A stretch of 64,000 bases of DNA from a virus. Of the stretch, positions 1,687 through 45,000 are shown one piece after another (the first letter of the stretch is position 1; every line of letters begins with the position of its first letter). The notes below the pieces were generated by a model. The model did no database searches and was not told where the DNA came from. It saw only the letters and a program-made list of their open reading frames with translations. The translations under genes and the position numbers were made by a program. The DNA lies in IMG/VR virus record IMGVR_UViG_3300028490_000395; one strand, 5' to 3'.

Positions 1687-1875
1687 AATCTATCCTTTAA
1701 GTATATAGATTATACCGAAGACAAGCTAAAAGTTTATTGAATAATTATAGGTGAAATTATCTTTAATATATGACCGCTTAAGATATAATTTATCTTATCT
1801 ATGCTAGAATACTCTTAATCAAAAAATAAAAGAATACTTCTATTGAAGTGTAGATTTATTTACAGGAGAAAAATT

Positions 1876-2433
1876 ATGAATAAACAACCTCGAGTAGCTT
1901 TTTCAGCTGAACGAAATCAACCATTTACAAATGGACACTTTTATCTAAACTCAGAGATGCTAAGAGACAATGACGTGATCATTGTAGGCATCGGTTCAAC
2001 ACAGATTCAAGGAACTTCAAGAAACCCATTCTCACCAGAACAACGAAAAGAAATGTACTTTAAAGTTTTTGGTAAAACTAAAAAGATAAAATTTGTTTAT
2101 CTTCGAGATATTGGAGCTGTATATCCTGGAGAATGGCAAGACTATTGTCTTAAAAGAATCAAAGATTCAAGTTATCCTACTCCAACACATTACTACTGTG
2201 GATCAAAAACAGATGGATATTGGTTTGAAGGTGCAGAAAACCTAAATGGTGATCCTATTGAACTTGTTACTTTGAAAAGATACGACACACCTTTCATGCC
2301 AGGTACAAATATCAGAGCGTCAATTACAAATGATTCGGATGAGTGGGAAGAACATGTTCCTAAATGTCTGATTGAATACATTAAAGATAATTATCCAAAA
2401 GATCTTATGATTCAAGCTCACAGAGATCATTGA
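1876..2433 (+). CDS. nadM: NadM-type nicotinamide-nucleotide adenylyltransferase (HxGH nucleotidyltransferase)
   Basis: N-terminus ERNQPFTNGH...IGSTQ...RNPFSPEQR matches archaeal/bacterial NadM (GRMQPFHRGH...IGSAQ...RDPFT..ER). The track start at 1843 is TTG; ATG at 1876 follows AGGAG. Confidence 0.8.
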   Translation: MNKQPRVAFSAERNQPFTNGHFYLNSEMLRDNDVIIVGIGSTQIQGTSRNPFSPEQRKEMYFKVFGKTKKIKFVYLRDIGAVYPGEWQDYCLKRIKDSSYPTPTHYYCGSKTDGYWFEGAENLNGDPIELVTLKRYDTPFMPGTNIRASITNDSDEWEEHVPKCLIEYIKDNYPKDLMIQAHRDH

Positions 2434-2654: not shown

Positions 2655-2754
2655 AAAGTGACCAAAACGTGATTTGTCCTAAAAAGCTGCGAAATTCAAG
2701 TAGTACAATAGATCTGTTCAATTGAATAGAATAATATGTACAAGGAGAACTAAT

Positions 2755-3348
2755 ATGTATAAGAATATACTTGTAGTCGTAGACTACCAAAGAGACTTCG
2801 TAAGTCCAGAAGGTGCACTTTATGTACCTGAAGCAGAAACAGTTGCCGCAAGGATTCAACAAGAGATAGACAATCCTAAGTACGATGCGATTGTATATAC
2901 AATGGATACACATATCAAAGAAGACTATGCTAGTTCAAAAGAAGTCAAGATCTTTCCTCTTCACTGTGAGTTCAACACAAAAGGGTGGGAATTCTTTATA
3001 ATCAGACCAAGAAGCAGAGAGGTTAGAATAACTGTAGAAGAAGGTGTTCTTGAAACGCCAAGAGATTTTTCTGTGGAGAATGAATTTGTCTTTATGAAAG
3101 ATGAGTTTAGTGTTTGGGAAGGAAATTCTCAATACGAAACATGGATCAGAGATAATGTTGAAAAAGAGGCTTCTGTAACGGTTGTCGGTGTTGCCACAAA
3201 TTATTGTGTGTTTCAGAATGCAATGGGATATGAAAAGCTTGGAATCTCAAGCGTTTCTGTCATTGGCGATGCAGTAAGAGGTATTCCAGATGATACCTAC
3301 GAAGCAAAAGTTATTGAGATGAAAGATCAAAATGTTCGCTTCCGCTAA
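2755..3348 (+). CDS. pncA: nicotinamidase (isochorismatase family)
   Basis: LVVVDYQRDF catalytic Asp region. Metal-binding D-x-H...PLHC aligns with the PncA D49/H51/H71 region. The catalytic Cys sits in VGVATNYCV. ATG at 2755 follows AAGGAGA. Confidence 0.85.
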   Translation: MYKNILVVVDYQRDFVSPEGALYVPEAETVAARIQQEIDNPKYDAIVYTMDTHIKEDYASSKEVKIFPLHCEFNTKGWEFFIIRPRSREVRITVEEGVLETPRDFSVENEFVFMKDEFSVWEGNSQYETWIRDNVEKEASVTVVGVATNYCVFQNAMGYEKLGISSVSVIGDAVRGIPDDTYEAKVIEMKDQNVRFR

Positions 3349-3967
3349 TTATTCAATCATAACGGACTTTGGTTGTCCGTTTATGTGTGCGTTCTGTATC
3401 ACAAACTCTCAAAACTCAAAAAAGAAGTTTACTTTTAATGAAGAAGTATTCTCTGATATATCAGAGAGTCTCTCTAAGGGGTCTTACAGGCGCATCTCAG
3501 TGTCAGGAGGAGGTGAGCCTCTCTTTGTACACAACAATGAGATTCAGGCATTCTATGACAGGCTATTTAAGTTTGGAAAAGAAAAAAACATACCGATACA
3601 TGTTCATACAAATATCGTTGCTCCAAACGCTTTAGCTAGGAAGTTTGATAAGGTGACTATTTCAATCAACGAAGAGAACTTTCTTAAAAAGTATTTTCTA
3701 TGGGAGGATGTCAAAGATAAAAGATTTGTGCATGTTTCAGATGGGTCAGATGTTACGCTGATCAAAGAGATGATCTTTAATCTAGATAAAGATTCTCAGC
3801 TAACTATAAAGCAAATGGATGGGGTTGACGCTTCATGCTTTGTAGATGTAATAAAAGAGTGCACTCTGGATCAAAGGGTTATGTTCCTCGCTGAAGGTGA
3901 TTATAACCTGTACTATGTACTAAATGAAAGAAAAGAATTTCATAAATTCAAGGATATAAGCTTTTAA
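3332..3967 (+). CDS. small radical-SAM enzyme, activase-like (PflA/NrdG/QueE-like fold)
   Basis: CPFMCAFC (CxxxCxxC) at residues 15-22 and a GGGEPLF motif. About 211 aa. Overlaps the pncA end by 17 nt. Confidence 0.65.
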   Translation: MFASANYSIITDFGCPFMCAFCITNSQNSKKKFTFNEEVFSDISESLSKGSYRRISVSGGGEPLFVHNNEIQAFYDRLFKFGKEKNIPIHVHTNIVAPNALARKFDKVTISINEENFLKKYFLWEDVKDKRFVHVSDGSDVTLIKEMIFNLDKDSQLTIKQMDGVDASCFVDVIKECTLDQRVMFLAEGDYNLYYVLNERKEFHKFKDISF

Positions 3968-4713: not shown

Positions 4714-6531
4714 ATGAGGGTATCTGCTATGTTTAGCTTTAAAAAATCAAATCCAACTCCAAGCTTGAAAGAACTGTTAAATTTTAAAGAAGTTGACAAG
4801 ATTTCATCCGTTAAATTTTCAAGTATGCCTCTTCTATCTGATAATAAACGACATTCTTTTATTATTCTTCAAATAAAAGAACGGGCAAATATAGACGATC
4901 AAATGGATGAGCAGCGTATTTTTTACAGAAAGTTAAAAAAAGAGATTGAAGGTAAAAAACATTTATCTACTTCCGTATCCCTCCAAACATTAAGAAAAGT
5001 AATCTATCCAAGATTTGAGAACTTTGAATCCGATCGTATAGAGATTCCTATCCATGAAGCATTATCAAAAGAGTTTCAAAAATCAATAAGTGATTGTCGA
5101 ACTAATTTTTTCACATATAAATCATTTATAGTTATTAGATTCTCAAAGTTAACAAAAAAAGCAACATATGAGTTTGCCGAGATAATTAAGCTTTTATCAG
5201 ACAGTAATTTACTTCAAGTTGATCAGAATGAAATAAGCAAGTTCTTTGACAATGACTATATTGAGATGGATCCTTTTCACAATATTATTGCAAGTGAAGG
5301 AGAGTCACACTATCAAATTCTTATAGATTCTATGTACAACGTTTTTACGGATTCCAAGGCAGAAAAGTTCAAAGATGATTTGATTGCAGCTTTTGGAAAT
5401 AATTTCATTACATATAACGGCGTTGTTCCAACAGTATCAGAGAACGGGGTGTGTTCTTTTCTCGATATAGATGACTCTTTTTCTATTATTGGGATAGCAG
5501 GAAGTGGAAAGACAACGCAAATGTCAAGTATTGTAAAAAGTTATCTAGATAAAGGCACTAGAACTTACATTATAGACAATTCTGAATCGTATGAACATTT
5601 TTCTAAATTCTTCAATTCAAAAAGATTTGATTTAAATAAAGACTTATCTATAAATATTCTTTCGCTAGTTTCAGAAGACAATGACAACAACGAGATTATA
5701 GATGCTTATATCGATGTTATTAATGCTTTAGTTGGAGGGATGCAACGGGCTGAAAGAAATCAAGTTAAAGAGGTCGTTAAACATGTTGTGTTTTCAAAGA
5801 AGAACAAAGGCACATTAAAAGATGTCGTTAAAGAGATGGGTAAAAACAATAAGCTTTACTCGTTAATGGGGAAGTTAAAGCCTTATATAGAGGAGTCTTC
5901 AGAATATTATAATGTTCTTAATTCACCATGTGAAATAAGCTTTGGAATGGAAGATCTTTTTGTATTAGATTGTTCTGAGTTATATAAAGATACAAAACTG
6001 AGAGAGGCTATCCTCATATCTACAATATTGATAATAAAAGAGATCGAAAAGAAAAAGAGTGGATCATTCTTACTAATTTTGGAAGGCGTGGATGAATATT
6101 TAAGAACCGACACGACTTCATTTATAAAAGATGTAAACAACAACTTTAAAAGTTTACACGGTAAATTAGGGGTTTCATTGGACTATTCTTTTCATAAAGA
6201 AAATTTAGATGCACTTCCATTATCTTCAATTATCATCTATCAAAGAGCCGGGAACTTTTTATCTCAGGGAATTTTAAACAATTCCATTCATCTAAACCTA
6301 GAGGTGAAAGAGTTTTTGCTTGCGCATGAAACAGAAAATTTTAATTCCTACAAAATGATCATGACAAAAGACAACAAAGTATTATTTAAGGGTCGGCCTA
6401 TTTTTGGATATGATCCGGGACTATTAACTGGTTCATATAGAGTAAAAAAAGAGATTGATTTGAAAATCAGATCAGGGTTATCAGAGGAAGAATCTTTAAA
6501 GAAAGTTATTAAAGAAAATTCTTTAGGTTAG
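4714..6531 (+). CDS. P-loop NTPase (Walker A IIGIAGSGKTT mid-protein), possibly HerA/VirB4-like
   Basis: Walker A at about residue 265 and a candidate Walker B LLILEGVDE. The family is not resolved. An alternative ATG at 4732 follows GAGGG. Confidence 0.55.
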   Translation: MRVSAMFSFKKSNPTPSLKELLNFKEVDKISSVKFSSMPLLSDNKRHSFIILQIKERANIDDQMDEQRIFYRKLKKEIEGKKHLSTSVSLQTLRKVIYPRFENFESDRIEIPIHEALSKEFQKSISDCRTNFFTYKSFIVIRFSKLTKKATYEFAEIIKLLSDSNLLQVDQNEISKFFDNDYIEMDPFHNIIASEGESHYQILIDSMYNVFTDSKAEKFKDDLIAAFGNNFITYNGVVPTVSENGVCSFLDIDDSFSIIGIAGSGKTTQMSSIVKSYLDKGTRTYIIDNSESYEHFSKFFNSKRFDLNKDLSINILSLVSEDNDNNEIIDAYIDVINALVGGMQRAERNQVKEVVKHVVFSKKNKGTLKDVVKEMGKNNKLYSLMGKLKPYIEESSEYYNVLNSPCEISFGMEDLFVLDCSELYKDTKLREAILISTILIIKEIEKKKSGSFLLILEGVDEYLRTDTTSFIKDVNNNFKSLHGKLGVSLDYSFHKENLDALPLSSIIIYQRAGNFLSQGILNNSIHLNLEVKEFLLAHETENFNSYKMIMTKDNKVLFKGRPIFGYDPGLLTGSYRVKKEIDLKIRSGLSEEESLKKVIKENSLG

Positions 6532-6571: not shown

Positions 6572-6787
6572 ATGGAAAAGTTTTATAAAGTTAGAAATAA
6601 GCAAACAGGGCTCTTTTTCAATAAAGACTCATACAAAGAGAGTGAAAAGGGATCAACATTCAAGATCTTATCTGCAGCAGAAAGATTAAAGGGATATATA
6701 TCGGACTATCCTAATGTTAATGCGAACCATGATACTCTTGAAATCGTTGTTTTTGGACTAGTTGAGATTTCTGTGGTAGGAGACTGA
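6572..6787 (+). CDS. small protein (71 aa) coupled to the ATP-grasp gene
   Basis: Its stop lies 2 nt before the ATP-grasp ATG. Its C-terminus ...EISVVGD contains the SD site of the next gene. Confidence 0.5.
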   Translation: MEKFYKVRNKQTGLFFNKDSYKESEKGSTFKILSAAERLKGYISDYPNVNANHDTLEIVVFGLVEISVVGD

Positions 6788-6788
6788 T

Positions 6789-7997
6789 ATGGCTTCTTTT
6801 TTATACCAGTCTAGATTCCCATTAGGTTCAATACCTTTCGATGCTCCTACACCTCTTAAAACTCTCTACATAGACATTATTAGATCTATGGACATCTCAA
6901 CAACTGAAAGAAATGTGGATAAGGAAGATTGGATTGAATCTGTGATTCCATTAATTGAACTTTATAAGCAAAAAGATGTGCACACAATTTTAGTGCTAGA
7001 TATTTCTAACAATAACTTCAAACAGTTCTTGTCAAAGGAAAAAGAATATTCAAAAGAGTTTATCTCCGTTGGTCTGTATCTTAAAAAGAATTTTACTAAA
7101 GAAATAAAAGTTGACGGATTGACGATATCTGTTGTTTTCCCGAGAGAGCCTGATTATGTTGAGTATGAAGGGTATATGTATCCTATGCTTCAATCATTTA
7201 AGGAAAACTCAAATAGAGTAATTTATGGTCTTTTTTCTACATACGATGAAGAAGGAGTATCCTATGCTAAAAAGAAAATGGATGATCTAACAAAAGCAGG
7301 GTATAAGAATGAATACTCTGAGCATACTAAGATAATTTCAGAAGAAAAAGCTAAAGAGGCAAGAGCTTTCAGTGCAGCAAAGAACTATTATGAGCTTGGT
7401 TTAAAATGTAAAGAAAATTCAATAGAAGACAAGCTTTCTGAATTGTCTTATGCTCAAGATGAAGATATTAAGGACTATTTTATTAAAACTGTCAAGAAAA
7501 ATTGGGCGCTAAAGATCTCTATTAAAAAGAACTCAAGTAGATCAGACGTGTACAATGAGTTTGTAAACATTTTTGAGTACGCATGGTGTGAAACCTTAAG
7601 AAATAGTATCGACACAATCTTATTGCAAGACTATGCTGATATAACTTACGAATATAGATTTATAGTCTTAAACAGTGTTCTTGTTTGTGGGGCTGGGTGC
7701 ATAGAAGAATTTACACCCGTAGACAATATTGGTGGTAAATTTGATACACAACTGAAAGAGTATAGATACGATAAACAAATACTTGTAGATGTTGAGAAAG
7801 TAGAAGAACTAAAATCTTTTGCAGAGACTATAGTTGAAAAGATTACTCTTGAAGATGACTTTTTCCAAAACTATAGCTTAGACATTGGGATTATAAATGG
7901 AAGACCTGGGATTATTGAAATAAATCCTTACGCAAATGTGGGGATGTATGCCCTAGATTATTCAAATGTTTTAAGACATTTAACAAAGGGAGAATAA
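6789..7997 (+). CDS. ATP-grasp family ligase
   Basis: C-terminal half carries ATP-grasp signatures: a Lys-rich ISIKK, LLQDYADITYEYRFIV (E-x-R), and GIINGRPGIIEINPYAN (EIN motif). AGGAG lies 6 nt upstream of the ATG. Confidence 0.7.
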   Translation: MASFLYQSRFPLGSIPFDAPTPLKTLYIDIIRSMDISTTERNVDKEDWIESVIPLIELYKQKDVHTILVLDISNNNFKQFLSKEKEYSKEFISVGLYLKKNFTKEIKVDGLTISVVFPREPDYVEYEGYMYPMLQSFKENSNRVIYGLFSTYDEEGVSYAKKKMDDLTKAGYKNEYSEHTKIISEEKAKEARAFSAAKNYYELGLKCKENSIEDKLSELSYAQDEDIKDYFIKTVKKNWALKISIKKNSSRSDVYNEFVNIFEYAWCETLRNSIDTILLQDYADITYEYRFIVLNSVLVCGAGCIEEFTPVDNIGGKFDTQLKEYRYDKQILVDVEKVEELKSFAETIVEKITLEDDFFQNYSLDIGIINGRPGIIEINPYANVGMYALDYSNVLRHLTKGE

Positions 7998-8405
7998 ATG
8001 GGAAATTATACAAACTGTCCAAAGTGTAATGGGTTAGATATTTCACAAGAAGATTGTGGATATTCAAGTTTCAATGTTGGGACGATACGCTGCGTGTGTG
8101 GATTTGAGTTGAAGACAACGTGTAGCTGCTATCCTCAAGATGAGTTAATCTCATACTGGAATAAAACAGTTGCGGTCTTAAATGAGATTGCACAGCTTGA
8201 TCAAAAGAAGATGATAGAGCTTGCACAAGCGTTGTATTTAGAGGATGTAGTTATAGGGAACTCCACCTTAATGAATATAGTGGGACCGGCACCAAAGACT
8301 CTATGTAAGAGCTGCGCAGGGCATGGGACTATTGTAATTAAGCAAGGATTCCACAACCCACCACCAGAGACTTGTGAAAGCTGTAAAGGAACAGGGTATA
8401 TCTAA
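7998..8405 (+). CDS. Cys-rich zinc-finger protein with DnaJ-type CxxCxGxG repeats
   Basis: CPKCNG, CKSCAGHGT and CESCKGTGYI repeats. Its start codon abuts the stop of the ATP-grasp gene. Confidence 0.6.
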   Translation: MGNYTNCPKCNGLDISQEDCGYSSFNVGTIRCVCGFELKTTCSCYPQDELISYWNKTVAVLNEIAQLDQKKMIELAQALYLEDVVIGNSTLMNIVGPAPKTLCKSCAGHGTIVIKQGFHNPPPETCESCKGTGYI

Positions 8406-10512: not shown

Positions 10513-11664
10513 CTAGAAGTTATATGTATAAGCTAGAGCTAAAGAATTTTGATCGTTTGTTGCTTCAAGATCTCCAGAAGCAAACGGAATATCTTCAGAT
10601 TGTGAACCTGTTCCATAAACGTATGCAAGATCGAGAGAGTTGTTGTCGTTAATGTTCCACGTACCACCAATTGTATAGTGCATAGTTGTAACAGCAGGGA
10701 AGTAAGCCATTGAAGTACCTAAACCATTTGCAGTGTCACCTCTACCTAAAGGAGTATCACCATAGTTAAGACCAAGTCTTCCTTCCCAAGATTTTGCTGA
10801 GTACTGATAACCTCCAGCGAACACATCTTGATTTTCCCAATCGAAATCTTCAAAACCTGTTGCTGAACCATAACCAAGGTGCTTGTAATCAAAAGCGATT
10901 GTATGAGCACTAATTGTGTAGCTGATACCAACGCCAATTTCTGACGGAGTCGCCAACTTGTTGTTGTTTCTGTTAGTACCAGAAATAAGAACGTCATCTC
11001 CAAAGTCAAGATCAACTGAAGATTTATAAACAGCAGCGAATGTTACAGATGAACCTTCATTAATAGAAAGTTCATAGTCTGCACCAAGTTCAAAACCTAA
11101 TCCAGTAGCTGTAGAAGATTGCTGAGAATCTGTACCATCTGTTCCAAAGTAACCAGGTAGACTAAGCTTTCCTGATTTAGCCAAAGGTGTAAAACCAATA
11201 CTAAATCCAGAAACCTTATACGCCATAGGAACAGCGAAAGTAGCAATTGCTAACTCAGATTTAACATCTTTAATGTTATCTTCATCGCCATAATCAACAC
11301 CCATTCCACCACTGCCGTAAATCGCTCCACCTAAGTAGAAAGAATCGTTAAATGCATAAACACCTGAAACTGAAGGGATGACTGACATAGGATACTTACT
11401 GTTGTAAGTGTTCGAATTATCAGCAACAGAAACGTCAGCGTTAAACAGCGTTGCTCCAACGTTGATAAATGCTGTATCAGTCCGCGTGATCATAGAAGGG
11501 TTAGAATAAGCATTCTCACCTTTTAGATTAGTTGCAATACCTACACCACCCATTGAACGAGCCTTTGCTCCTACACCAATTTGATTAATACCATTTGTTG
11601 CGAAAGCAGACGTTGTCCCTAGTGCTAGTGCAGCGATAACTGCTAATTTAATTGTTTTTTTCAT
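10513..11664 (-). CDS. FadL/OmpP1-family outer-membrane transport protein
   Basis: Signal peptide, then NQIGVGAKARSMGGVGIATNLKGENAYSNPSMIT, which is the FadL N-terminal signature ending ...NPA/S. C-terminal ...AYTYNF is a terminal aromatic. Confidence 0.7.
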   Translation of the reverse strand: MKKTIKLAVIAALALGTTSAFATNGINQIGVGAKARSMGGVGIATNLKGENAYSNPSMITRTDTAFINVGATLFNADVSVADNSNTYNSKYPMSVIPSVSGVYAFNDSFYLGGAIYGSGGMGVDYGDEDNIKDVKSELAIATFAVPMAYKVSGFSIGFTPLAKSGKLSLPGYFGTDGTDSQQSSTATGLGFELGADYELSINEGSSVTFAAVYKSSVDLDFGDDVLISGTNRNNNKLATPSEIGVGISYTISAHTIAFDYKHLGYGSATGFEDFDWENQDVFAGGYQYSAKSWEGRLGLNYGDTPLGRGDTANGLGTSMAYFPAVTTMHYTIGGTWNINDNNSLDLAYVYGTGSQSEDIPFASGDLEATNDQNSLALAYTYNF

Positions 11665-12498: not shown

Positions 12499-13461
12499 AT
12501 GAATACATTTTCAACAGATGAAAAAGAAACACTTTTTAGCCAATTCATAGTAAAGGCTAGTGAAGTAATGACACCCTCACAAAATACAGTAACAGATTCT
12601 CTTGATATAATTGATCGAGATCTTTACGACTATACTAAAGCTGCAGGACTTGAGAGTCTTTGCCTAGGCATCTCTGGGGGACTAGATTCAGCGGTAGTAG
12701 CGGCTATTGCCTCTAAAGTAACAAAAAGACTAGGGATTAAACTTATAGGGGTTTCTATCCCTCTTAGTTCGTCAGACAAACACAGGGAGCAAGCTGCATG
12801 GGTTGGAGAAACTTATTGTGACGCATTCTCAGAGATTAATGCTTGGGAAGAGATAATCCCTGAAGCAGAAACAACTCCACACGAGATGGTTGACTCTGTA
12901 ATCAATTCAACAGATAGAGTTCTTAAAATGGCGGGATTTGAACCGAATGACTTTGATCGAGCTATTCAACAAGCGAACATTAAAAGTAGACTTAGAATGA
13001 TTACTCTTTATGCTATTGCTAAAAATGCAAAAGGAATGGTTCTAGGGACAGGAAACTGGAGCGAAGACCATGCAATTTTCTTTTATACAATTGGTGGAGA
13101 TGGTCAAGTCGATTACTCTCCGATAAAAGGAATAGGTAAAGGCTTTGAGATGCCTGTGTTTGCAAAAGAGCTAGGGATTAGAGATGATATCATTGATCAA
13201 AAACCGAGTGACGGTCTAAAAGCTTCTGAGGCGGATACAGATGAAGCTCAGATAGGTGGGACCTATGAAGAAGTCGATGCAGTAATCAATGCTTACCTAG
13301 GAAACTTTGGAAAAGAGCTTACTTACTACTTCAGCATGATTGAAGATCTTGAAAAAGTTCAAAAGATCATTGGAAGACATAAGGCCAACAAATTCAAAGA
13401 GAATGGTGAAGTCTCAATAGAGAGGGGAGAGAACGGGCTACCAGAAGTCTTTATGGAATAA
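12499..13461 (+). CDS. nadE: NH3-dependent NAD+ synthetase
   Basis: PP-loop LGISGGLDSAVVAAIA. Length and layout are consistent with NadE. Confidence 0.8.
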   Translation: MNTFSTDEKETLFSQFIVKASEVMTPSQNTVTDSLDIIDRDLYDYTKAAGLESLCLGISGGLDSAVVAAIASKVTKRLGIKLIGVSIPLSSSDKHREQAAWVGETYCDAFSEINAWEEIIPEAETTPHEMVDSVINSTDRVLKMAGFEPNDFDRAIQQANIKSRLRMITLYAIAKNAKGMVLGTGNWSEDHAIFFYTIGGDGQVDYSPIKGIGKGFEMPVFAKELGIRDDIIDQKPSDGLKASEADTDEAQIGGTYEEVDAVINAYLGNFGKELTYYFSMIEDLEKVQKIIGRHKANKFKENGEVSIERGENGLPEVFME

Positions 13462-15586: not shown

Positions 15587-16012
15587 ATGAAGAATAGAAG
15601 AATTGCAAAGTTTATAAAAGAGTTTTTATGGATATTGAAATCAGCCTTTATGAGTTTTTTTATCTTACCACCGGCATTCATCCTGTTAACTCTCCTTTAC
15701 ACAACAAGCTTTAACTTAAGTGAGATAGGGCAAATATTTCTAGAGTCAAACCAAGATGCCTTGAAGTCAAACTGGATCATGCTTGGGGCAGCATTCTATT
15801 TTATTCTAGTTATGTTTAGAATAGCTTCTTCTGCCTTCAGACCTCTTGACAACATAGAGTATTTTCAAGAGTCAATAGCACAACAAAAGGGAAGTGAAAG
15901 AAAAGATTACATTTCTCATGGGGTGACGATAGAGGGAAACAAAAACTATTTTAAGGGATTGATCTCTAGAGAAGAGGCCAACACCTTTATGGATGTTTTA
16001 AGACGTGACTAA
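15587..16012 (+). CDS. membrane protein (3 TM)
   Basis: Hydrophobic segments. AAAGGAAT upstream. Confidence 0.5.
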   Translation: MKNRRIAKFIKEFLWILKSAFMSFFILPPAFILLTLLYTTSFNLSEIGQIFLESNQDALKSNWIMLGAAFYFILVMFRIASSAFRPLDNIEYFQESIAQQKGSERKDYISHGVTIEGNKNYFKGLISREEANTFMDVLRRD

Positions 16013-16501
16013 AACGTAATTAGGATAACTATTTTGAAAAGTGTTAAAGCTTTTCTTTCTCAGATTGTTGTTTGAGAATCTTTTGTCAAATGTTACATCT
16101 TCAGTAATCCAAGCCGGTAAAACAAATTCTTCATTTTCTGACTGAAGCTCAATCTCAGCTAAAACTAATCCAAAGTTTTCACCCTTAAAGAAATCAACTT
16201 CCCAAAGATGCCCTTCATGTTCAATTTCAAAGCGTTCTTTTTTTACAAGAGGTCCGTCGCAAAGACCTGAAAGCATTTCAATTGCGTCACTTTTTGGGAC
16301 TTCATATTCATATTCATCTCTAGTAAAGTTGTTTGTGGGACCTTTAAGAGTTAAAAATCCTTTGTCATTACAAAGACGAACTCTGACAGTGGAAGCGTTT
16401 CGAGTTGAAACATACCCCTGAATAATTTCAAGAGGTTTTGGTAATACATTGGGAAGCTTGCTGTGATCAACAAGATATTTACGTTCTATTTCTTTAGGCA
16501 T
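15998..16501 (-). CDS. CYTH-domain protein (CyaB / thiamine-triphosphatase-like triphosphate tunnel enzyme)
   Basis: N-terminal EIERKYL (ExExK) hallmark. About 167 aa. Start moved to the ATG preceded by AGGAGG. Confidence 0.7.
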   Translation of the reverse strand: MPKEIERKYLVDHSKLPNVLPKPLEIIQGYVSTRNASTVRVRLCNDKGFLTLKGPTNNFTRDEYEYEVPKSDAIEMLSGLCDGPLVKKERFEIEHEGHLWEVDFFKGENFGLVLAEIELQSENEEFVLPAWITEDVTFDKRFSNNNLRKKSFNTFQNSYPNYVLVTS

Positions 16502-16597
16502 TATAGGCCTCCTGTTTTTAATGTGTAACATAATAACCTAAATCTTTTAAAGAATGCTTAAGGTGAGAACAGATATTATTGCGTTAAAGGATCATTA

Positions 16598-17781: not shown

Positions 17782-19086
17782 ATGCACCACGCTGAATTAC
17801 CTATCGCACTCATTTTAATAGCGTCAATTATTTTGATCGCTAAGTTCGCTCAAGAAAAAGGGAAAATCCCTTTACCTTACACCTTCATTATCCTAGCATA
17901 TTCCATGGAAAAATTAGTCCCCGACCTTATCCCTGACACGTTTAGAACGCATTTCGATGCAAATGTTCTATTCTTAATTCCATTGATCTTTATGGGAGAC
18001 TTATTACACCTACAATGGAAAGATATTTATCAGCACAAATTTTCAATTTTATATCTGTCAGTAGTCTCAGTCGCCCTTTCTATTATTGCTGGAGCAAGTC
18101 TGTATTACTTAGATCTTCTTCCTCAACTAACAATAGGTATGTATGTCGCGCTCTTTTCTATAGTAATGGCTACAGACGCGATAAGTGTCCAAGGTGTCCT
18201 TTCTCAATTCAAGGGGATACCTCACAAGGTAAAGATCCTTTTTGAAGGTGAGAGCATAGGTAATGACGCTACAGCAATGATTGCCTTCTACTTTGTGGGG
18301 GTGCCTTGGATAATGTATAATACATTTGATTTTTCGACACTCCCTTTAATCTTTTTTAAGGTCTTTGTAGGCTCTATTATTCTAGGTCTACTGTCTGGGT
18401 ACTTAGGTTATTTGATAATGAAGATTTTTAAAGATACAAGATCTGAAACACTTGTAATAATTGTCACTTCGTATATTTCATTTTTAAGTGCAGAGTATTT
18501 CCATCTTGCAGGTATTGCATCGATTATTGCTGCAATTATTCTTCTAAAAGCCTTATCTGATAGAGATATTGAAAGAGATTTAACATTGGCTGCACAAAAA
18601 TCAAGAGATGATCATAATCCGAAGTCTTTAACAAAGTTCCTAACAACTTCTTCAACAACAAAAGAAAGAATGGAGTCTGTTCAACATACAGTATCTGACT
18701 ATGGCTACTTTGCTTCGGTGTTCATCTTTATTGCTCTAGCAGAGATGATTAAAATAGATGATCTTGTAAAATACTGGGATGCGATATTAATTGTTTTTGC
18801 AGCCACAACTATTATCAGAGCTTTATCAATGGCTAAATTTGTTTGGATTGGTCGCAATACTGAACACATTGCACACTTAGATTTTCAAGGATGGTTTGTA
18901 CTTACTATGGCCGGGATGAAAGGTGCTCTATCTATCATAATGGTTCATGCTTTACCAGCTGATTTCGCGCTTAAAGAGATGTTTGAAGCTATAGTTGTTG
19001 GAGTCATCTTAATGAGTATTTTCTTTAATGGTCTTGCATTGATAATTTACTTTAATGTAACGAAAGAAGCTTCAGATGTTCACTAG
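17782..19086 (+). CDS. cation/proton antiporter-like membrane protein (CPA/NhaP-like)
   Basis: About 12 TM segments and 434 aa, with an N-terminal helix typical of Na+/H+ exchangers. Family assignment is by architecture only. Confidence 0.5.
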   Translation: MHHAELPIALILIASIILIAKFAQEKGKIPLPYTFIILAYSMEKLVPDLIPDTFRTHFDANVLFLIPLIFMGDLLHLQWKDIYQHKFSILYLSVVSVALSIIAGASLYYLDLLPQLTIGMYVALFSIVMATDAISVQGVLSQFKGIPHKVKILFEGESIGNDATAMIAFYFVGVPWIMYNTFDFSTLPLIFFKVFVGSIILGLLSGYLGYLIMKIFKDTRSETLVIIVTSYISFLSAEYFHLAGIASIIAAIILLKALSDRDIERDLTLAAQKSRDDHNPKSLTKFLTTSSTTKERMESVQHTVSDYGYFASVFIFIALAEMIKIDDLVKYWDAILIVFAATTIIRALSMAKFVWIGRNTEHIAHLDFQGWFVLTMAGMKGALSIIMVHALPADFALKEMFEAIVVGVILMSIFFNGLALIIYFNVTKEASDVH

Positions 19087-22150: not shown

Positions 22151-23881
22151 ATGGAAACATTAATTACAACAGGTATTACAGGCGGAATCTTAGTATTCGT
22201 AATGGTCTTAATTGGACTAATCTTCACAAAACTCTACAAAAAAGCAACAAAAGAAACAGCGTTTATTAGAACAGGTCTCGGTGGTGAGAAAGTTATTCTA
22301 GATGGTGGTGCAATCGTTCTCCCAGTCGTTCATGATCAGATCTTGGTAAATATGCAAACTCTTCGTCTCCAGGTAATCAGAATTGAAAAAGACTCCCTTA
22401 TTACTTCGGACAGAATGCGTATTGATATTACAGCAGACTTCTATGTTCGTGTAGCTCCTAATGCAGAAGCGGTAGGAAGAGCAGCACAAACTTTAGGTAG
22501 AAAAACACTACGTCCAGACGACCTTAAAGTTCTTATTGAAGGAAAGTTTGTCGATGTTCTTCGTGCAGTAGCTGCGGAAATGAAGATGGAAGAGTTACAT
22601 GAATCAAGATCAAGCTTTGTTGAAAAAGTAAAGGCAACAGTTGCTGAAGATCTTCTTAAAAATGGATTGGAGCTTGAAACAGTTGCACTTACAAACTTAG
22701 ACCAGACGAAAGAGATGTTTTTCGATGAAAACAGTGTCTTTGATACAGAGGGTCTTACTGTTCTAAAGCGTAAAACAGAAGATCGTCGTAGAGAGCGTAA
22801 TGACATTGAAAAAGACGCTCAGATTGCAATCGAAGAAAAAAACCTTGAAACACGCAAACAGTCTCTAGAATATCAGCTTGAGCAAGAAAATGCTGAAGCG
22901 AAGCAAAGTTCGCAGGTAGTAAGAGAGCGCGAAGAGCGTAGAAAAGAAGAAGAGTCTGCTACTATTGTCGCAGAAAAAGAGATTGAAGAGGCTCGTATCC
23001 AAAAAGAGCTATTCATTAAAGAGCGTCAAATCGAAAAAGATAAATCTCTTGAAATTTCTGAACAAAACAAGCAAATTGCGATTTATGAAAAGTCTCAAGA
23101 AAAATCTCGATCAGCTAGTGAGGCCAATGCTGCGAAAGCCGACGAGGTTCGTTCTCAAGAAGCAATTGTTACAGCAAAAGAGATTGAGACAGCTGAGCGT
23201 GAAAAAAGACTCTTGATCATTGACGCTGAGAAAGATGCTGAAAGTGCTGCTATTAGTATTAAAGTAAATGCAGCTACAGAAAAAGCAGCTTCACAAGATA
23301 AAGCAGATGCTATTAAAATTGAAGCGCAAGGTACAGCTGACGCGATCATTATTAAGGCAGAAGCAGAAGAGAAGCGTTATGAAGTAGATGCAAAAGGTCA
23401 AGCAGACTTGAATAATGCTGAGAATGTTCTATCTGACGAAATCATTCAGATGAGAATTCAAGAAGCTCTTATCAAAACACTTCCTAGTATTATTGCAGAG
23501 AGCGTTAAGCCTATGGAGAAAATCGATTCTATCCGTATTGCTGAAATGAGTGGTCTTAACGGATCTGGTGGTGGCGCTATGAATGCAGACGGTGTGGTTG
23601 TAAATGGTGGAGGTTCTGGAAGTCTTTCAAATGAAATTGTAGATGCAGCACTAAAATACAAGACTCATGCACCGGTTCTAGCTTCTCTTACGGATAGTTT
23701 AGGTCTTGATCTAAACTCTCTTGAGGGCATGACAGCTCCATTAGAAAAAATGGTTCCGGCAAGAACTCCTAAAGTCCAGCCAGCTAAAGCTGCTAAAGTG
23801 GCTAAAAAAGCTCAAGAAAAAAGCTTATCTGATAAACAAAAAGCTTATCTGAAAAAAGATCCTGAAAACTCAGCGTCTTAA
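22151..23881 (+). CDS. SPFH/band-7 flotillin-like protein (YqiK-like) with long coiled-coil
   Basis: N-terminal TM, an SPFH core, and a long E/K/A-rich coiled coil. Confidence 0.7.
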   Translation: METLITTGITGGILVFVMVLIGLIFTKLYKKATKETAFIRTGLGGEKVILDGGAIVLPVVHDQILVNMQTLRLQVIRIEKDSLITSDRMRIDITADFYVRVAPNAEAVGRAAQTLGRKTLRPDDLKVLIEGKFVDVLRAVAAEMKMEELHESRSSFVEKVKATVAEDLLKNGLELETVALTNLDQTKEMFFDENSVFDTEGLTVLKRKTEDRRRERNDIEKDAQIAIEEKNLETRKQSLEYQLEQENAEAKQSSQVVREREERRKEEESATIVAEKEIEEARIQKELFIKERQIEKDKSLEISEQNKQIAIYEKSQEKSRSASEANAAKADEVRSQEAIVTAKEIETAEREKRLLIIDAEKDAESAAISIKVNAATEKAASQDKADAIKIEAQGTADAIIIKAEAEEKRYEVDAKGQADLNNAENVLSDEIIQMRIQEALIKTLPSIIAESVKPMEKIDSIRIAEMSGLNGSGGGAMNADGVVVNGGGSGSLSNEIVDAALKYKTHAPVLASLTDSLGLDLNSLEGMTAPLEKMVPARTPKVQPAKAAKVAKKAQEKSLSDKQKAYLKKDPENSAS

Positions 23882-24725: not shown

Positions 24726-26771
24726 ATGGCAACGACAATCACAAACAATAAAGAGTACACAGTATCTGTAATGAACTTAAACAAATGGGCTAATGAGTAT
24801 TACACTCGTGATAATCCTTCAGTTTCAGATTCAGTTTACGATGAGCTGTACTTTTCTGTAAAAGCATTTGAAGATGCTAATCCTACTTTGTTATCAAAAA
24901 ATTCACCGACTCAAAGAGTTGGAGATAAATTACTAACAGGGTTTACAAAAGACTCTCATCTACAAAAGATGTATTCTCTAGATGACGTCTTTTTTGCTGA
25001 CGGTTCAGATCATGAAGAATTTCGTGAATGGGCTGATAAAATTAAAGAAGCTTACCCAAATGTAACCTTTTACGCAGAGCCTAAATATGACGGCTTGTCT
25101 CTCAACTTTCTTTATAAAGATGGAGAGCTTGTTAAAGCTATTACACGTGGAGATGGTGAAACTGGAGAAGATGTTACTGAAAATGCTCGTCATATTCATG
25201 GTGTCCCTCTTTCTATCCCATACACAGGTCTTGTTGAGATTCGTGGTGAAGTTACAATCTTTAAAAAAGATTTCCGTTCGGTAAACGATTATCGTCTTTC
25301 TATTAACAAAGATGAGTTTACAAATGAACGTGGTGCTGCTGCTGGATCTTTACGCTCATTTAACTCAGAAGCTGTTAAAGCTGCTCAGTTAAAATTTTCT
25401 CCTTATGCACTTGGCGAAAATGAGTTAGATCTAAACATGCAGTCTGAAGAGTATGACTGGATTATCTCACAAGGTTTTACCTCTTGGGGTACTCGAGAAC
25501 ACTCTGTTACACACGATACAGTCTCTGGAGTAATTCAGGACTACGATCGTATCATGACAACAAGAGATGAACATCCAATGTTACTAGATGGTGTTGTAAT
25601 CAAGATCGATGAAAAAGAAATCCAGCATGAGCTAGGTTTCACAAATAAGTTTCCTCGCTGGGCAATTGCTTATAAATTTCCGGCAGAAGAAGCTTTAACA
25701 ACGATTTTGAATATCATCTATCAAGTTGGTAAAACTGGTGCAATTACTCCTGTAGCTGTACTAGCTCCAACTGAGTTTGACGGTGTTACTGTTGAACGTG
25801 CAACACTTCACAACTTTCTTGAAATTGAACGCAAAGACATTCGCATTGGCGATATTGCTACAATCATTAGAAGTGGAGATGTTATCCCTAAAATTTTAGG
25901 TGTTAATCCTCTTGTTCGTGTAGGTACTGAAATTCCAGTAACTGAACCAACTAACTGCCCCTCTTGTAATGCTCCTACGGAACATAGAATTGGTGTAGAT
26001 GGCAACGAGTCAACTGTTACGTATTGCTCTAATCCACACTGTTCAGCTCGTGTTAAACAAAACATTGGCTATGCAATTGGTAAAAAAGCTTTAGATATGG
26101 TTGGTCTTGGTGATTCAGCTGCTGAAGAACTTGTTGAGAAAGAAATGGTCTTAGAAATTCCTGATTTATTCATGCTTTCAAAAGATGATCTTCTTAAACT
26201 TGACGGGTTTAAAGAACGTAAAGCTCAAAAAGCTTACGACGCTATTCAATCTGCTATTGGTACTGATCTTTATCGAGTTATCAATGCTTTAGATATTGAG
26301 CTTATTGGTGAACGTGCCTCTAAAAAACTTGCTATCAACAAATTCTTCGTAAGCCTAATTTTAGGTGAAGTTGAAGTTGAAGATAATCAATCATATGTTA
26401 TCTCTAAGCTAGAAGCGATAGAAGATATTGGTTCAGCTATGGCTAACAATATTTACGCATTCGTTTCTTCTGAAAGAGGTTTTATTAATCGTATGATTAG
26501 TTCAATCAATCCTAAGATGCCTGACTTTGACAAAGCTAAAGCAACTGGTGCTTTCACAGGTAAAACTGTTGTAATAACTGGAACCTTATCTGAGTCTCGA
26601 GGTGTCTTTGGTAAAATGGTTGAAGAAAATGGTGGTAAAGAAGGAAAGTCTGTTTCTAAAAAGACTGATTTTTTACTTGCTGGTGAAAAAGCTGGTTCAA
26701 AGCTTACTAAAGCAGAATCACTTGGAGTTACTGTTCTTAGTGAAGAAGAGTTTCTCGCTATGATCTCTTAA
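24726..26771 (+). CDS. ligA: NAD+-dependent DNA ligase
   Basis: KxDG adenylation motif EPKYDGLSL, Zn-finger CPSCNAPTE...CSNPHC, HhH region, and C-terminal BRCT GKTVVITGTL. Confidence 0.9.
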   Translation: MATTITNNKEYTVSVMNLNKWANEYYTRDNPSVSDSVYDELYFSVKAFEDANPTLLSKNSPTQRVGDKLLTGFTKDSHLQKMYSLDDVFFADGSDHEEFREWADKIKEAYPNVTFYAEPKYDGLSLNFLYKDGELVKAITRGDGETGEDVTENARHIHGVPLSIPYTGLVEIRGEVTIFKKDFRSVNDYRLSINKDEFTNERGAAAGSLRSFNSEAVKAAQLKFSPYALGENELDLNMQSEEYDWIISQGFTSWGTREHSVTHDTVSGVIQDYDRIMTTRDEHPMLLDGVVIKIDEKEIQHELGFTNKFPRWAIAYKFPAEEALTTILNIIYQVGKTGAITPVAVLAPTEFDGVTVERATLHNFLEIERKDIRIGDIATIIRSGDVIPKILGVNPLVRVGTEIPVTEPTNCPSCNAPTEHRIGVDGNESTVTYCSNPHCSARVKQNIGYAIGKKALDMVGLGDSAAEELVEKEMVLEIPDLFMLSKDDLLKLDGFKERKAQKAYDAIQSAIGTDLYRVINALDIELIGERASKKLAINKFFVSLILGEVEVEDNQSYVISKLEAIEDIGSAMANNIYAFVSSERGFINRMISSINPKMPDFDKAKATGAFTGKTVVITGTLSESRGVFGKMVEENGGKEGKSVSKKTDFLLAGEKAGSKLTKAESLGVTVLSEEEFLAMIS

Positions 26772-26777
26772 CTCAAG

Positions 26778-26799
26778 AGAAGCCTTTTGGCTTTTCTTT
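26778..26799. terminator. bidirectional terminator, GAAGCC-TTTT-GGCTTTTCTTT
   Basis: Between convergent ligA and 26814..27362. The identical 20-mer recurs in inverted orientation at 43427-43446. Confidence 0.6.
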
Positions 26800-26813
26800 C
26801 GACTTATATAAGT

Positions 26814-27362
26814 CTACAAATCTTCCAGAATATCTTCTTCTGCGATCAACACCTGCTCATTCTTCAGAATATTACCACTCTTGTCAATTTTAAATAAAAC
26901 AGAAGGTACATATTTACGACCATCGTTTCCTAAAGTTTTAACAGTTAACAACTCTTTAGTTGTTGCAATTATAGAAATAACTTCTCTTTGATCATAAGAG
27001 AAACTGCAAAAATTATAATGGTAAACGAATTTACTCAACCCTCCAAATTGCTCTCCAAATAAATGAGTGTCAAATTGTTTGTCTTCGTCACTATCAAAGA
27101 ATAATCCTTCACAATTTTCTTCGCTTAGTCTATACAGATTTTCTTTAATTATAGGTCGCATTTGTTTTGCGTACCAAGCCGGACGATCTCCGATACTTTT
27201 TAATTCAAATTTAACATTTACATCGGTCTTAGGAACCTCGGCTTTTATCAAAGAGCTCCCATTATTATTATCCATACCAGCAGAACTTTCTAGAACAAAG
27301 TACATTCCGAAAGCTCCTGCAAATATTAATAAAATCAATCCCAACTGTTTTATTTTTTCCAT
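26814..27362 (-). CDS. signal-anchored hypothetical protein
   Basis: N-terminal hydrophobic helix. ORF only. Confidence 0.45.
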   Translation of the reverse strand: MEKIKQLGLILLIFAGAFGMYFVLESSAGMDNNNGSSLIKAEVPKTDVNVKFELKSIGDRPAWYAKQMRPIIKENLYRLSEENCEGLFFDSDEDKQFDTHLFGEQFGGLSKFVYHYNFCSFSYDQREVISIIATTKELLTVKTLGNDGRKYVPSVLFKIDKSGNILKNEQVLIAEEDILEDL

Positions 27363-27495
27363 AAATAACTCCTATTTTCAAATATGAAAGAATTATACCC
27401 TATTTTATAGATACATCTTAAAGCCCTAAAATACGGCTTGTTAAAAGTTTTTTAAGATTGATTAAGCTATAATAGATACACATATATAAAAGGAG

Positions 27496-29739: not shown

Positions 29740-29748
29740 GGATAAGAA

Positions 29749-34577: not shown

Positions 34578-35246
34578 ATGAGTTCAAAAATAGGTATTTT
34601 AGATTCAATATCAGAGAAAAATGATTCAACAACAAGGGCTAGAATTGCTGAGGTTTACAAATTAGTTGCGGCAAGCATTATGGCGTCAGTCGTCGGAGTG
34701 TTCGTGGGCCAAGAGTTAGTGTCGGTAATTCAACAGTATTTCATAGGATTTATAATCCTAGAATTTGCTTTGTTATTTGGGTTAATGTTTGCAAAAGAAA
34801 AAGTTCCTCTTAATTTAATTTTAATGTTTGGATTTACTTTTATGACGGGGCTAACAATGGCACCATTAATAGCAATGTATTTGTCGACAGAAGCCGGTGT
34901 CAACATTCTAAGTACAGCACTATTAGCTACAGGAGCTTCAGTGGGAGGATTAAGTCTTTATGCAATGAAAACAAAGAAAGACTTTACGGTCTATGGACAG
35001 ATATTGTTCGTTGCGCTAATAGCGCTGGTTGTTGTTGGCATAGCAAACATATTTATTCAAAGCTCATTTTTACATCTGGCTATGGCATATGTTGGGGCTA
35101 TTTTGTTTTCTATGTATTTGATAGTGGACACACAAAGACTTGTAAGAGGGATGTATAGCTCTCCTATAATAATGGCTGTAAACATATACTTAGATATTTT
35201 AAACCTCTTTCTAAGTATTTTATCTATACTTAGTAGCAGAAAATAA
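34578..35246 (+). CDS. Bax-inhibitor-1/YccA-family 7-TM protein
   Basis: Seven TM helices, about 222 aa, with an N-terminal cytoplasmic segment. Matches the YccA/BI-1 architecture. Confidence 0.55.
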   Translation: MSSKIGILDSISEKNDSTTRARIAEVYKLVAASIMASVVGVFVGQELVSVIQQYFIGFIILEFALLFGLMFAKEKVPLNLILMFGFTFMTGLTMAPLIAMYLSTEAGVNILSTALLATGASVGGLSLYAMKTKKDFTVYGQILFVALIALVVVGIANIFIQSSFLHLAMAYVGAILFSMYLIVDTQRLVRGMYSSPIIMAVNIYLDILNLFLSILSILSSRK

Positions 35247-44727: not shown

Positions 44728-44804
44728 GCGGGTATAGCTCAGTTGGCTAGAGCGTCAGCCTTCCAAGCTGAATGTCGAGGGTTCGAGTCCCTTTGCCCGC
44801 TCCA
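44728..44804 (+). tRNA. tRNA-Gly (anticodon UCC)
   Basis: Cloverleaf folds. Anticodon arm tcagc-CTTCCAA-gctga. Acceptor gcgggta/tgcccgc, discriminator U, and CCA encoded. Confidence 0.85.
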
Positions 44805-44810
44805 AGAAAT

Positions 44811-44885
44811 GCGGAAGTAGCTCAGTGGTAGAGCATAACCTTGCCAAGGTTGAGGTCGCGAGTTCGAGTCTCGTTTTCCGCTCCA
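44811..44885 (+). tRNA. tRNA-Gly (anticodon GCC)
   Basis: Anticodon arm taacc-TTGCCAA-ggttg. CCA encoded. Confidence 0.85.
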
Positions 44886-44902
44886 TGTAAAAAAAAGAAA
44901 AT

Positions 44903-44975: not shown

Positions 44976-45000
44976 CAAATATTAGATAAAGGAGATTACA

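What the first reader, a model, noticed from the sequence alone, without database searches (positions are those of the whole stretch)
6572..8405. Translationally coupled small protein - ATP-grasp ligase - CxxCxGxG zinc-finger trio
- A 71-aa ORF ends 2 nt before the ATG of a 402-aa protein.
- The C-terminal half of that protein carries the ATP-grasp signatures: a Lys strand, E-x-R, and ...GIIEINPYAN.
- Its stop codon abuts the start of a 135-aa Cys-rich protein with two DnaJ-type CxxCxGxG repeats.
- Small-protein plus ATP-grasp pairs are the genetic signature of substrate and ligase systems, such as RimK-S6 C-terminal glutamylation or graspetide-type RiPP maturation.
- The 71-aa protein ends in ...VVGD, an acidic C-terminus.
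- The N-terminal ~200 aa of the ligase and the zinc-finger partner are not explained by known systems I can recall.
Basis: partly seen in the sequence, partly recalled or inferred. Interest (0 to 1): 0.6.

Follow-up and report, generated by a model that had tools for sequence, protein, structure and literature searches.

The report
Phage R2K ATP-grasp enzyme, unlinked neighbours
The middle gene is a real but fairly ordinary phage ATP-grasp enzyme of the CDC123-related "R2K" clade whose target is unknown, and the two small genes packed against it are separate phage genes rather than parts of a conserved substrate–ligase–zinc-finger system.

The parts
6789..7997 (+). R2K-clade ATP-grasp enzyme (402 aa). 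It comprises an α/β N-terminal region read as the pre-ATP-grasp domain (~1-150), a subfamily-specific helical insert (~154-222), and the catalytic RAGNYA plus kinase-like module (~225-402). Invariant residues are K233, K237, E288-x-R290, G303-C304-x-E306, D365 and E377-x-N379.
   Evidence: AGGAG Shine-Dalgarno 6 nt upstream of the ATG.
6572..6787 (+). Small phage protein (71 aa) of an unnamed family, motif YK[VI]R[ND]KxTG[LM]F…G.T[FWY]K…LEIV.F.LVE. Its function is unknown. It lies beside the ligase only here and in L022, so it is a possible lineage-specific partner but not a demonstrated part of the enzyme system.
   Evidence: Codon test; homologs P0032-P0037; contexts; AF2 model pLDDT 73.8 with no significant fold match.
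7998..8405 (+). Cys-rich two-module protein (135 aa). The N-terminal zinc-ribbon-like domain (C7, C10, C20, C32, C34, C42, C44; weak Lar-family similarity) is followed by a helical linker and a C-terminal DnaJ-type CxxCxGxG hairpin (103-110, 126-133). It is an independent gene and is not linked to the ligase in relatives.

Best explanation
The window is part of a ~255-kb, probably jumbo-phage, genome.

**The enzyme.** Gene 6789-7997 encodes a catalytically intact ATP-grasp enzyme of the R2K (CDC123-related) clade. By analogy with the peptide-bond-forming ATP-grasp assemblage marked by the ExR motif, it most likely binds Mg-ATP, activates a carboxylate as an acyl-phosphate, and ligates an amine to it (an amino acid or peptide). 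The likely target is a protein, host or phage, that is not identifiable from this locus. This chemistry and target are inferred, not shown.

**The neighbours.** The 71-aa and 135-aa genes are separate small phage accessory genes that are simply packed tightly against the enzyme gene, as is usual in this genome. The 71-aa gene's adjacency to the ligase is inherited within one sub-clade (window plus L022) and is not a general feature of either family.
For: **Fold**
- AF2 model pLDDT 87.5, pTM 0.86.
- All 50 top Foldseek PDB hits are ATP-grasp enzymes.

**Catalytic residues**
- K233, K237, E288-Y-R290, D365 and E377-x-N379 are invariant in 27 homologs. These correspond to the ATP-grasp template and the two-lysine R2K signature described in PMC4431377.

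**Family**
- The window protein hits Pfam R2K_2 at E 1.8e-4 and phrog_7313 at 2.8e-8.
- 18 of 27 family members hit R2K_2 and 16 of 27 hit R2K_3; no other Pfam family appears.
- The family profile also detects canonical short R2K proteins in L010 and L011.
- R2K enzymes are already reported in caudate and jumbo phages and predicted to modify host proteins.

**Independence of the neighbours**
- The small-family HMM finds nothing in ligase loci L001-L021.
- The ligase and Zn HMMs find nothing in small-family loci L023-L031.
- Zn-protein homolog loci L006-L009 lack a ligase.
- An IMG/VR scan with the ligase motif found no ligase relative in the collection, which holds the 113-436-kb contigs carrying the small domain.
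- 25 % of same-strand junctions in the window are 5 nt or less.

**Phage context**
- Head-maturation-protease match at E 5e-34, a tRNA cluster, and many PHROG hits.
Against: - No substrate, product or activity is shown for any non-eukaryotic R2K enzyme in the literature I found.
- CDC123, the only studied member, behaves as an ATPase and assembly chaperone, not a demonstrated ligase.
- The small-gene/ligase adjacency does recur in L022 although the upstream neighbour differs. A sub-clade-specific functional pairing is therefore not excluded.
- The window protein's own Pfam score (21.8 bits) is below the R2K_2 gathering threshold (26.2).
- Most relatives are on short contigs, so a gene absent from a locus may still be present elsewhere in the same genome.
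Confidence: 0.62

Rival explanations
1. Lineage-specific substrate or partner pair. In the window-plus-L022 sub-clade, the 71-aa protein is the ligase's dedicated substrate, carrier or specificity factor, in the manner of RimK-S6 or LysX-LysW. The Zn protein may or may not be involved.
For: - The small gene lies 1 nt upstream of the ligase here and 10 nt upstream in L022. The proteins are only 46 % and 43 % identical, GC differs (23 % vs 33 %), and the upstream neighbour differs.
Against: - The window and L022 ligases are mutual best hits (121 bits against 94 or less for others). The adjacency can therefore be explained by inherited gene order.
- About 17 other ligase loci lack the small gene.
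- About 7 other small-family loci lack the ligase, and four of them carry the domain fused to other sequence.
- The C-terminal residue is not conserved.
- The small-protein model has no LysW-like or ubiquitin-like match, with best E 0.7.
Confidence: 0.15
2. Non-ligase ATPase or assembly chaperone. Like eukaryotic CDC123, the protein would use ATP binding and hydrolysis to assemble or remodel a protein complex, host or phage, without forming a covalent bond.
For: - It belongs to the same clade as CDC123.
- CDC123 is described as an ATP-grasp assembly factor and ATPase for eIF2, and the word 'ligase' does not occur in the main text of PMC12860950.
Against: - The full ligase-type constellation is invariant, including the ExR arginine typical of amide-forming ATP-grasp enzymes.
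- The strictly conserved extra motifs GAGCIExFTP and DxEDWxE look more like a small-substrate pocket. This is inference only.
Confidence: 0.13
3. Three-gene functional module: the small protein is the substrate, the ATP-grasp is the ligase, and the CxxCxGxG protein is a chaperone or adaptor.
For: - The three genes have contiguous, co-directional junctions of 0-1 nt with Shine-Dalgarno motifs inside the preceding genes.
Against: - The Zn protein's homologs (P0029, P0030) are never next to a ligase or a small-family gene.
- L022 runs off the contig before its ligase gene ends, so it cannot be tested for a Zn gene.
- No trio was found in about 19 ligase loci.
- Tight junctions are common in this genome.
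Confidence: 0.04

Closest known systems
R2K-clade ATP-grasp enzymes (R2K.2/R2K.3 families; Pfam PF18299 R2K_2, PF14243 R2K_3; Burroughs, Zhang & Aravind 2015, PMC4431377)
   Same: - ATP-grasp fold.
[quoted passage not shown]
- Sporadic distribution in bacteria and phages, including jumbo phages (PMC7824862).
- Occasional linkage to a second R2K paralog (L010, L011).
- No identified target.
   Different: - This family is longer (335-414 aa, against ~270-290 aa for the canonical R2K genes seen in L010 and L011).
- It has a conserved N-terminal domain with a DxEDWxE motif and an invariant GAGCIExFTP motif with a Cys.
- The AT-rich phage subfamily adds a ~70-aa helical insert.
- The window protein scores below the Pfam gathering cut-off.
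- It has ExN, not the ExGD described for R2K.3.
CDC123 (R2K.1), eukaryotic eIF2 assembly factor
   Different: - No detectable pairwise sequence match to PDB Cdc123 with the family profile.
- Different N-terminal region.
- CDC123 is a chaperone and ATPase for a eukaryotic complex that does not exist in bacteria.
RimK / LysX-ArgX (ATP-grasp ligases acting on the C-terminus of a small protein: S6, LysW)
   Same: - ExR-type amide-forming ATP-grasp.
- A small gene lies immediately upstream here.
   Different: - No sequence-level membership; there is no RimK or LysX Pfam or NCBIfam hit.
- The two-lysine arrangement replaces the canonical linker Lys and glycine-rich loop.
- The small neighbour lacks a conserved acidic C-terminus and lacks LysW's zinc-ribbon fold.
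- The pairing is not conserved.
Graspetide / microviridin ATP-grasp macrocyclases (MdnB/C, PsnB, CdnC)
   Different: - There is no precursor peptide with a leader and a Thr/Ser/Lys-Asp/Glu core motif.
- The 71-aa protein is a folded α/β domain family that also occurs fused to other domains.
- There is no RiPP context.
Lar restriction-alleviation family (PF14354) and DnaJ-type CxxCxGxG zinc fingers (PF00684; Anti-TRAP-like small proteins), compared with the 135-aa protein
   Same: - The N-terminal CPxC…CxCG…WN[KR] pattern gives weak hits spanning almost the whole Lar profile in all three homologs.
- The C-terminus has two CxxCxGxG repeats, as in one DnaJ zinc centre.
   Different: - All hits are below the curated thresholds (E 0.017-0.19 for Lar; 2e-4 for DnaJ).
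- There is no J-domain.
- The CxxCxGxG module is missing from P0030, so the two modules are separable.

Membership tests
ATP-grasp superfamily | ATP-grasp fold (RAGNYA plus kinase/PIPK-like catalytic module, usually preceded by a pre-ATP-grasp domain) | tested here: met
   [not shown]
ATP-grasp superfamily | Catalytic constellation: Lys at the end of RAGNYA strand 2, an acidic residue in kinase-like strand 4, and ExN at the end of strand 5 | tested here: met
   K233 (strand 227-234), D365 (strand 362-369) and E377-x-N379 (strand 372-380) are invariant in 27 sequences. The template is as described in PMC4431377.
Amide/peptide-bond-forming ATP-grasp assemblage | [quoted passage not shown] | tested here: met
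   E288-Y289-R290 are invariant and lie in strand 285-294.
R2K clade | A second conserved Lys/Arg in the loop just downstream of the strand-2 lysine, and a strand 2-3 loop of variable length lacking ssxGbGl | tested here: met
   K237 is invariant, 4 residues after K233. The loop at 235-239 is 5 residues long with no GxG motif.
R2K clade | Absence of the conserved Lys in the linker between the pre-ATP-grasp and RAGNYA domains | tested here: inconclusive
   No invariant Lys lies between residues 150 and 232. However, an invariant Arg (R143) lies at the end of the N-terminal domain, and its spatial position relative to the ATP site could not be inspected with these tools.
R2K clade (Pfam R2K_2 / R2K_3) | Profile match above the curated threshold | tested here: inconclusive
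   The window protein scores 21.8 bits against a cut-off of 26.2. At family level, 18 of 27 members hit R2K_2 and 16 of 27 hit R2K_3 at E ≤ 1e-3 (best 2e-8 and 7e-9), and no other family is hit.
R2K.3 family | ExGD instead of ExN in the last strand | tested here: not met
   The family has an invariant ExN (E377, N379).
RimK-S6 or LysX-LysW type substrate-ligase pair | A dedicated small protein substrate with a conserved acidic C-terminal residue, co-conserved with the ligase | tested here: not met
   The C-terminus varies: D, E, G, S, G, N. The adjacency occurs in 2 of about 19 ligase loci and 2 of about 9 small-family loci.
RimK-S6 or LysX-LysW type substrate-ligase pair | Covalent modification of the small protein | not testable with these tools
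   This needs co-expression and mass spectrometry.
Graspetide RiPP system | A precursor peptide with a leader and a repeated core motif next to the ligase | tested here: not met
   The 71-aa protein is a conserved folded domain (β-β-α-β model). It also occurs as the N-terminal domain of 150-213-aa proteins. No repeated core motif is visible.
DnaJ central zinc-finger domain (135-aa protein) | CxxCxGxG repeats | tested here: met
   There are two repeats, at 103-110 and 126-133, where DnaJ has four. Pfam PF00684 gives E 2e-4, below the cut-off. It therefore has a DnaJ-type zinc hairpin but is not a DnaJ protein, as there is no J-domain.
Lar restriction-alleviation family (135-aa protein, N-terminus) | Profile match to PF14354 | tested here: inconclusive
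   E is 0.19, 0.032 and 0.017 for the three homologs. Each hit covers about positions 3-56 of the 58-position profile, but all are far below the 28.6-bit cut-off.

The most novel reading that the evidence does not exclude
In one jumbo-phage sub-clade (window plus L022), the R2K ATP-grasp enzyme has acquired a dedicated small-protein partner. The 71-aa protein would be its substrate, amino-group carrier or targeting subunit. That would make this the first R2K enzyme outside eukaryotes with an identifiable protein partner, and hence a tractable entry point to the unknown chemistry of the whole clade. Separately, the 335-414-aa family with its invariant DxEDWxE and GAGCIExFTP (Cys) motifs may be a distinct, undescribed R2K family.
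Probability: 0.15. Interest if true: 0.65.

Novelty: new member of a known kind. Interest (0 to 1): 0.3.

Why it matters
R2K ATP-grasp enzymes are a clade with no demonstrated substrate in bacteria or phages. Their only studied member, CDC123, is an essential eukaryotic translation-factor assembly protein. A phage version with a fully intact active site and a recurrent small neighbour is a cheap experimental handle: co-express the genes and look for a mass shift or a complex. As it stands, though, the locus mainly confirms what comparative genomics already reported, that jumbo phages sporadically carry R2K ligases. It also shows that the attractive "small protein + ligase + zinc finger" reading comes from tight phage gene packing and not from a conserved system.

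Tried and rejected
- **blastn against the GenBank phage collection.** The 3-kb region gave no match.
- **Single-sequence tblastn in ligase loci L001-L005.** The 71-aa and 135-aa proteins gave no hits. This alone would have missed remote relatives, so I repeated it with an HMM after the exhaustive search; it was still negative.
- **Word-indexed homolog search for the 71-aa protein.** It returned only the protein itself. The apparent orphan status was overturned by the exhaustive phmmer search, so I dropped the idea that the ORF is spurious or an orphan.
- **Neighbour clustering across 17 ligase loci.** No recurrent partner emerged apart from a second R2K paralog in L010 and L011, and local synteny among Microbacteriaceae. 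High-GC loci produced many spurious antisense ORFs.
- **Family profiles against PDB sequences.** Nothing significant for the ligase or the Zn protein.
- **PADLOC and NCBIfam.** No hits for the ligase or the 71-aa protein. The Zn protein gave only weak NCBIfam DnaJ hits.
- **Promoter and terminator scan.** Not different from shuffled sequence, so uninformative about operon boundaries.
- **IMG/VR scan for the ligase.** Pattern hits were found, but none was confirmed.
- **Fold search of the 71-aa model.** No significant match, which rejects a ubiquitin-like, β-grasp or LysW-like reading at the confidence the model allows (pLDDT 73.8).
- **PHROGs on small-family members.** No hits.

Full report
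**Observation**

The three ORFs exist as described: 6572-6787 (71 aa), 6789-7997 (402 aa) and 7998-8405 (135 aa), all on the + strand.
- One nucleotide separates the small ORF's TGA from the ligase ATG. An AGGAG lies 6 nt upstream of that ATG, inside the small gene.
- The ligase TAA is followed directly by the ATG of the third gene, with GGGAG in the last ligase codons.
- The trio closes a co-directional block that also holds an isochorismatase/nicotinamidase-like gene, a small radical-SAM gene, an NT5C-like gene and a TraC/VirB4-like P-loop ATPase.
- Tight junctions are ordinary in this genome. Of 48 same-strand neighbour pairs, 12 have gaps of 5 nt or less. The geometry by itself says little about function.

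**What the replicon is**

The window comes from a 254,785-bp metagenomic contig.
- It carries GyrB/GyrA, Pol III alpha, NAD-dependent DNA ligase, a six-gene tRNA cluster, a head-maturation-protease match (phrog_53, E 5e-34) and many PHROG-only families.
- It has no nucleotide match in GenBank phages.
- I treat it as a probable jumbo phage. This is inference; no capsid or terminase gene was examined.

**The 402-aa protein is an ATP-grasp enzyme of the R2K clade**

*Sequence evidence*
- The window protein gives weak hits to Pfam R2K_2 (E 1.8e-4, below the cut-off) and phrog_7313 (2.8e-8).
- Only 27 relatives were found in 5.8 billion clusters. The closest are 36-37 % identical over the full length.
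- Their alignment has invariant K233, K237, E288-Y-R290, D365 and E377-x-N379. It also has an N-terminal D44-x-E46-D47…E50 motif, R143, and a striking G303-C304-x-E306…T309-P310 (GAGCIExFTP) motif.
- Of the 27 members, 18 hit R2K_2 and 16 hit R2K_3 individually, and no other Pfam family appears.
- The family profile also detects canonical ~270-290-aa R2K proteins encoded near the long ones in L010 and L011.

*Structure evidence*
- The AlphaFold model is confident (pLDDT 87.5, pTM 0.86).
- The top 50 Foldseek PDB hits are all ATP-grasp enzymes.

*Fit to the R2K definition*
- The invariant residues fall on the expected strands of the model. They match the ATP-grasp template and the two-lysine R2K signature, with a short strand 2-3 loop lacking the glycine-rich motif, as defined by Burroughs, Zhang and Aravind (PMC4431377).
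- The family has ExN, not the ExGD of R2K.3.
- One R2K criterion, absence of a basic residue in the linker between the pre-ATP-grasp and RAGNYA domains, is unresolved because of the invariant R143.

**The "unexplained" N-terminal half**

- Residues 1-150 are conserved throughout the family and model as an α/β region. Because 232 residues align to ArgX, more than the ~178-residue catalytic module, I read this region as the pre-ATP-grasp domain (inference).
- Residues ~154-222 form three helices. In the alignment they are an insertion present only in the AT-rich phage subfamily P0001-P0006.

**The 71-aa gene is real and belongs to a family of its own**

- Its codon usage is typical of genes in this window (0.313 bits per codon against an in-frame mean of 0.319; only 1.1 % of off-frame chunks reach that value). 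An AAGG lies 7 nt upstream of its ATG.
- The word-indexed search found only the protein itself. The exhaustive phmmer search found six small relatives (36-61 % identity, 51-79 aa).
- A scan of viral contigs found six more loci.
- The family consensus is YK[VI]R[ND]KxTG[LM]F…G.T[FWY]K…LEIV.F.LVE.
- The domain occurs alone (L023, L027/L028), as tandem paralogs (L024/L025), or as the N-terminal domain of 150-213-aa proteins on contigs of 55 to 436 kb (L026, L029-L031).
- Its model (pLDDT 73.8) has two β-strands and a long α-helix (with a short helix and an isolated β-bridge between the first strand and the long helix) and no significant match in the PDB (best E 0.7).

**Is the trio, or the pair, conserved?**

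*Trio: no*
- The Zn protein has two homologs, P0029 and P0030. Their loci L006-L009 contain no ligase and no small-family gene.

*Pair: once*
- In L022, an 829-nt contig with 23 % GC, the small-gene homolog (46 % identity) is followed 10 nt later by the N-terminus of a ligase homolog (43 % identity over 159 aa, E 7e-36). The preceding gene is unrelated to the window's.
- The window and L022 ligases are each other's closest relatives (121 bits against 94 or less for any other). Inherited local gene order is therefore a sufficient explanation.

*Elsewhere: independent*
- A small-family HMM finds nothing in ligase loci L001-L021. These include nine bacterial genomes: Paucibacter, Arthrobacter, a Paracoccus plasmid, several Microbacteriaceae and Brevibacterium.
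- The ligase HMM finds nothing within about 4 kb of the small gene in L023-L031.
- An IMG/VR scan with the ligase motif found no ligase relative at all, although that collection holds the large contigs carrying the small domain.
- Clustering all neighbours across 17 ligase loci found no recurrent partner, apart from a second R2K paralog in L010 and L011 and local synteny among closely related Microbacteriaceae genomes.

**The 135-aa protein**

- The N-terminal ~56 residues carry seven invariant Cys (C7, C10, C20, C32, C34, C42, C44) and a WNK motif.
- All three homologs give weak hits to the Lar restriction-alleviation zinc ribbon that span almost the whole profile (E 0.19, 0.032, 0.017), well below the threshold. 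This is a lead, not a membership.
- The C-terminal two CxxCxGxG repeats are present in P0028 and P0029 and are replaced by other sequence in P0030. They hit the DnaJ central domain weakly (E 2e-4).
- The protein therefore looks like a modular zinc-binding phage protein, unrelated in distribution to the ligase.

**Mechanism**

*Shown*
- An ATP-grasp fold, an intact and invariant ATP/Mg²⁺ and ExR constellation, and R2K-type features.

*Inferred*
- The enzyme performs ATP-dependent carboxylate activation through an acyl-phosphate intermediate, followed by amide ligation of an amino acid or peptide.
- The likely target is a protein, as proposed for phage R2K enzymes (PMC4431377, PMC7824862).

*Rival*
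- The main rival is a CDC123-like ATPase or assembly chaperone without ligation. CDC123 is the only R2K member with biochemistry, and that work describes ATP binding and hydrolysis and eIF2 assembly, not ligation (PMC8844851, PMC12860950).
- A sub-clade-specific partnership with the 71-aa protein remains possible at roughly 15 %.

**Novelty and score**

- R2K ATP-grasp genes in caudate and jumbo phages are already described. This is a new, divergent member, possibly of a separate long subfamily with its own conserved motifs. Its target is unknown.
- The system-level interpretation that made the finding attractive is not supported.
- Interest 0.3.

Noticed in passing
window 1843-2433, 2722-3348, 12499-13461; L003 506-991; L005 4333-5628: NAD-related genes surround the trio: a weak cytidylyltransferase-like gene, an isochorismatase/nicotinamidase-like gene, and NAD synthase (E 8e-33). 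Two other ligase loci carry ADP-ribose enzymes next to or near the ligase: NADAR in L003 and a PARP catalytic domain in L005. This echoes the R2K.2-ARG-R2K.3 operons reported in PMC4431377 and hints at a thematic R2K/ADP-ribosylation link.
   Followed up: partly
window 4714-6531 (+): A 605-aa P-loop ATPase lies immediately upstream of the small gene. It shows TraC/VirB4-type similarity (NCBIfam TIGR02746 E 5.5e-18, partial; Pfam TraG P-loop/DUF87), which is unusual in a phage-like replicon.
   Followed up: partly
window 3332-3967 (+): A small (211-aa) radical-SAM protein, phrog_17662 (E 1e-17), with weak prokaryotic-viperin, NrdG and QueE-like hits. It overlaps the preceding isochorismatase-like gene by 17 nt.
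   Followed up: no
window 10513-11664 (-): A FadL/TodX-type outer-membrane transport protein (Pfam Toluene_X, E 6e-17) whose N-terminus reads by eye like a signal peptide, encoded on what otherwise looks like a phage genome.
   Followed up: no
window 44728-45620: A cluster of six tRNA genes (Gly-TCC twice, Gly-GCC, Met, Trp). One ARAGORN call (44903-44976) has an undetermined, two-base anticodon.
   Followed up: no
window 17782-19086, 22151-23881, 24726-32283, 48742-52092: A cellular-type gene set on the same contig: Na+/H+ exchanger, flotillin/SPFH, NAD-dependent DNA ligase, GyrB plus GyrA, and Pol III alpha. A head-maturation-protease match lies at 38498-39523.
   Followed up: partly
L024 60-290 and 315-545 (the same genes in L025): Two tandem paralogs of the 71-aa family sit side by side with no ligase nearby. 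This shows that the small family expands on its own.
   Followed up: partly
L010 5001-6008 and 7770-8582; L011 3539-4399 and 5001-6119: Distant long-form family members are accompanied within 2 kb by a second, canonical short R2K ATP-grasp gene. No such paralog exists in the window.
   Followed up: yes
window 6789-7997, residues 44-50 and 301-310: The family has the invariant motifs DxEDWxE (N-terminal domain) and GAGCIExFTP (with an invariant Cys304). These are not mentioned in the parts of the R2K description I read. They are candidate substrate-binding determinants and a possible marker of a separate R2K subfamily.
   Followed up: partly
window 15998-16531 (-) / L006 8709-9194; window 34578-35246 (+) / L003 3176-3871: Contigs carrying the Zn-protein homolog and the ligase homolog also share other genes with the window (CYTH, 45 % identity; Bax1-I, 45 % identity), but in a different order. 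This indicates related phages with rearranged gene order.
   Followed up: no
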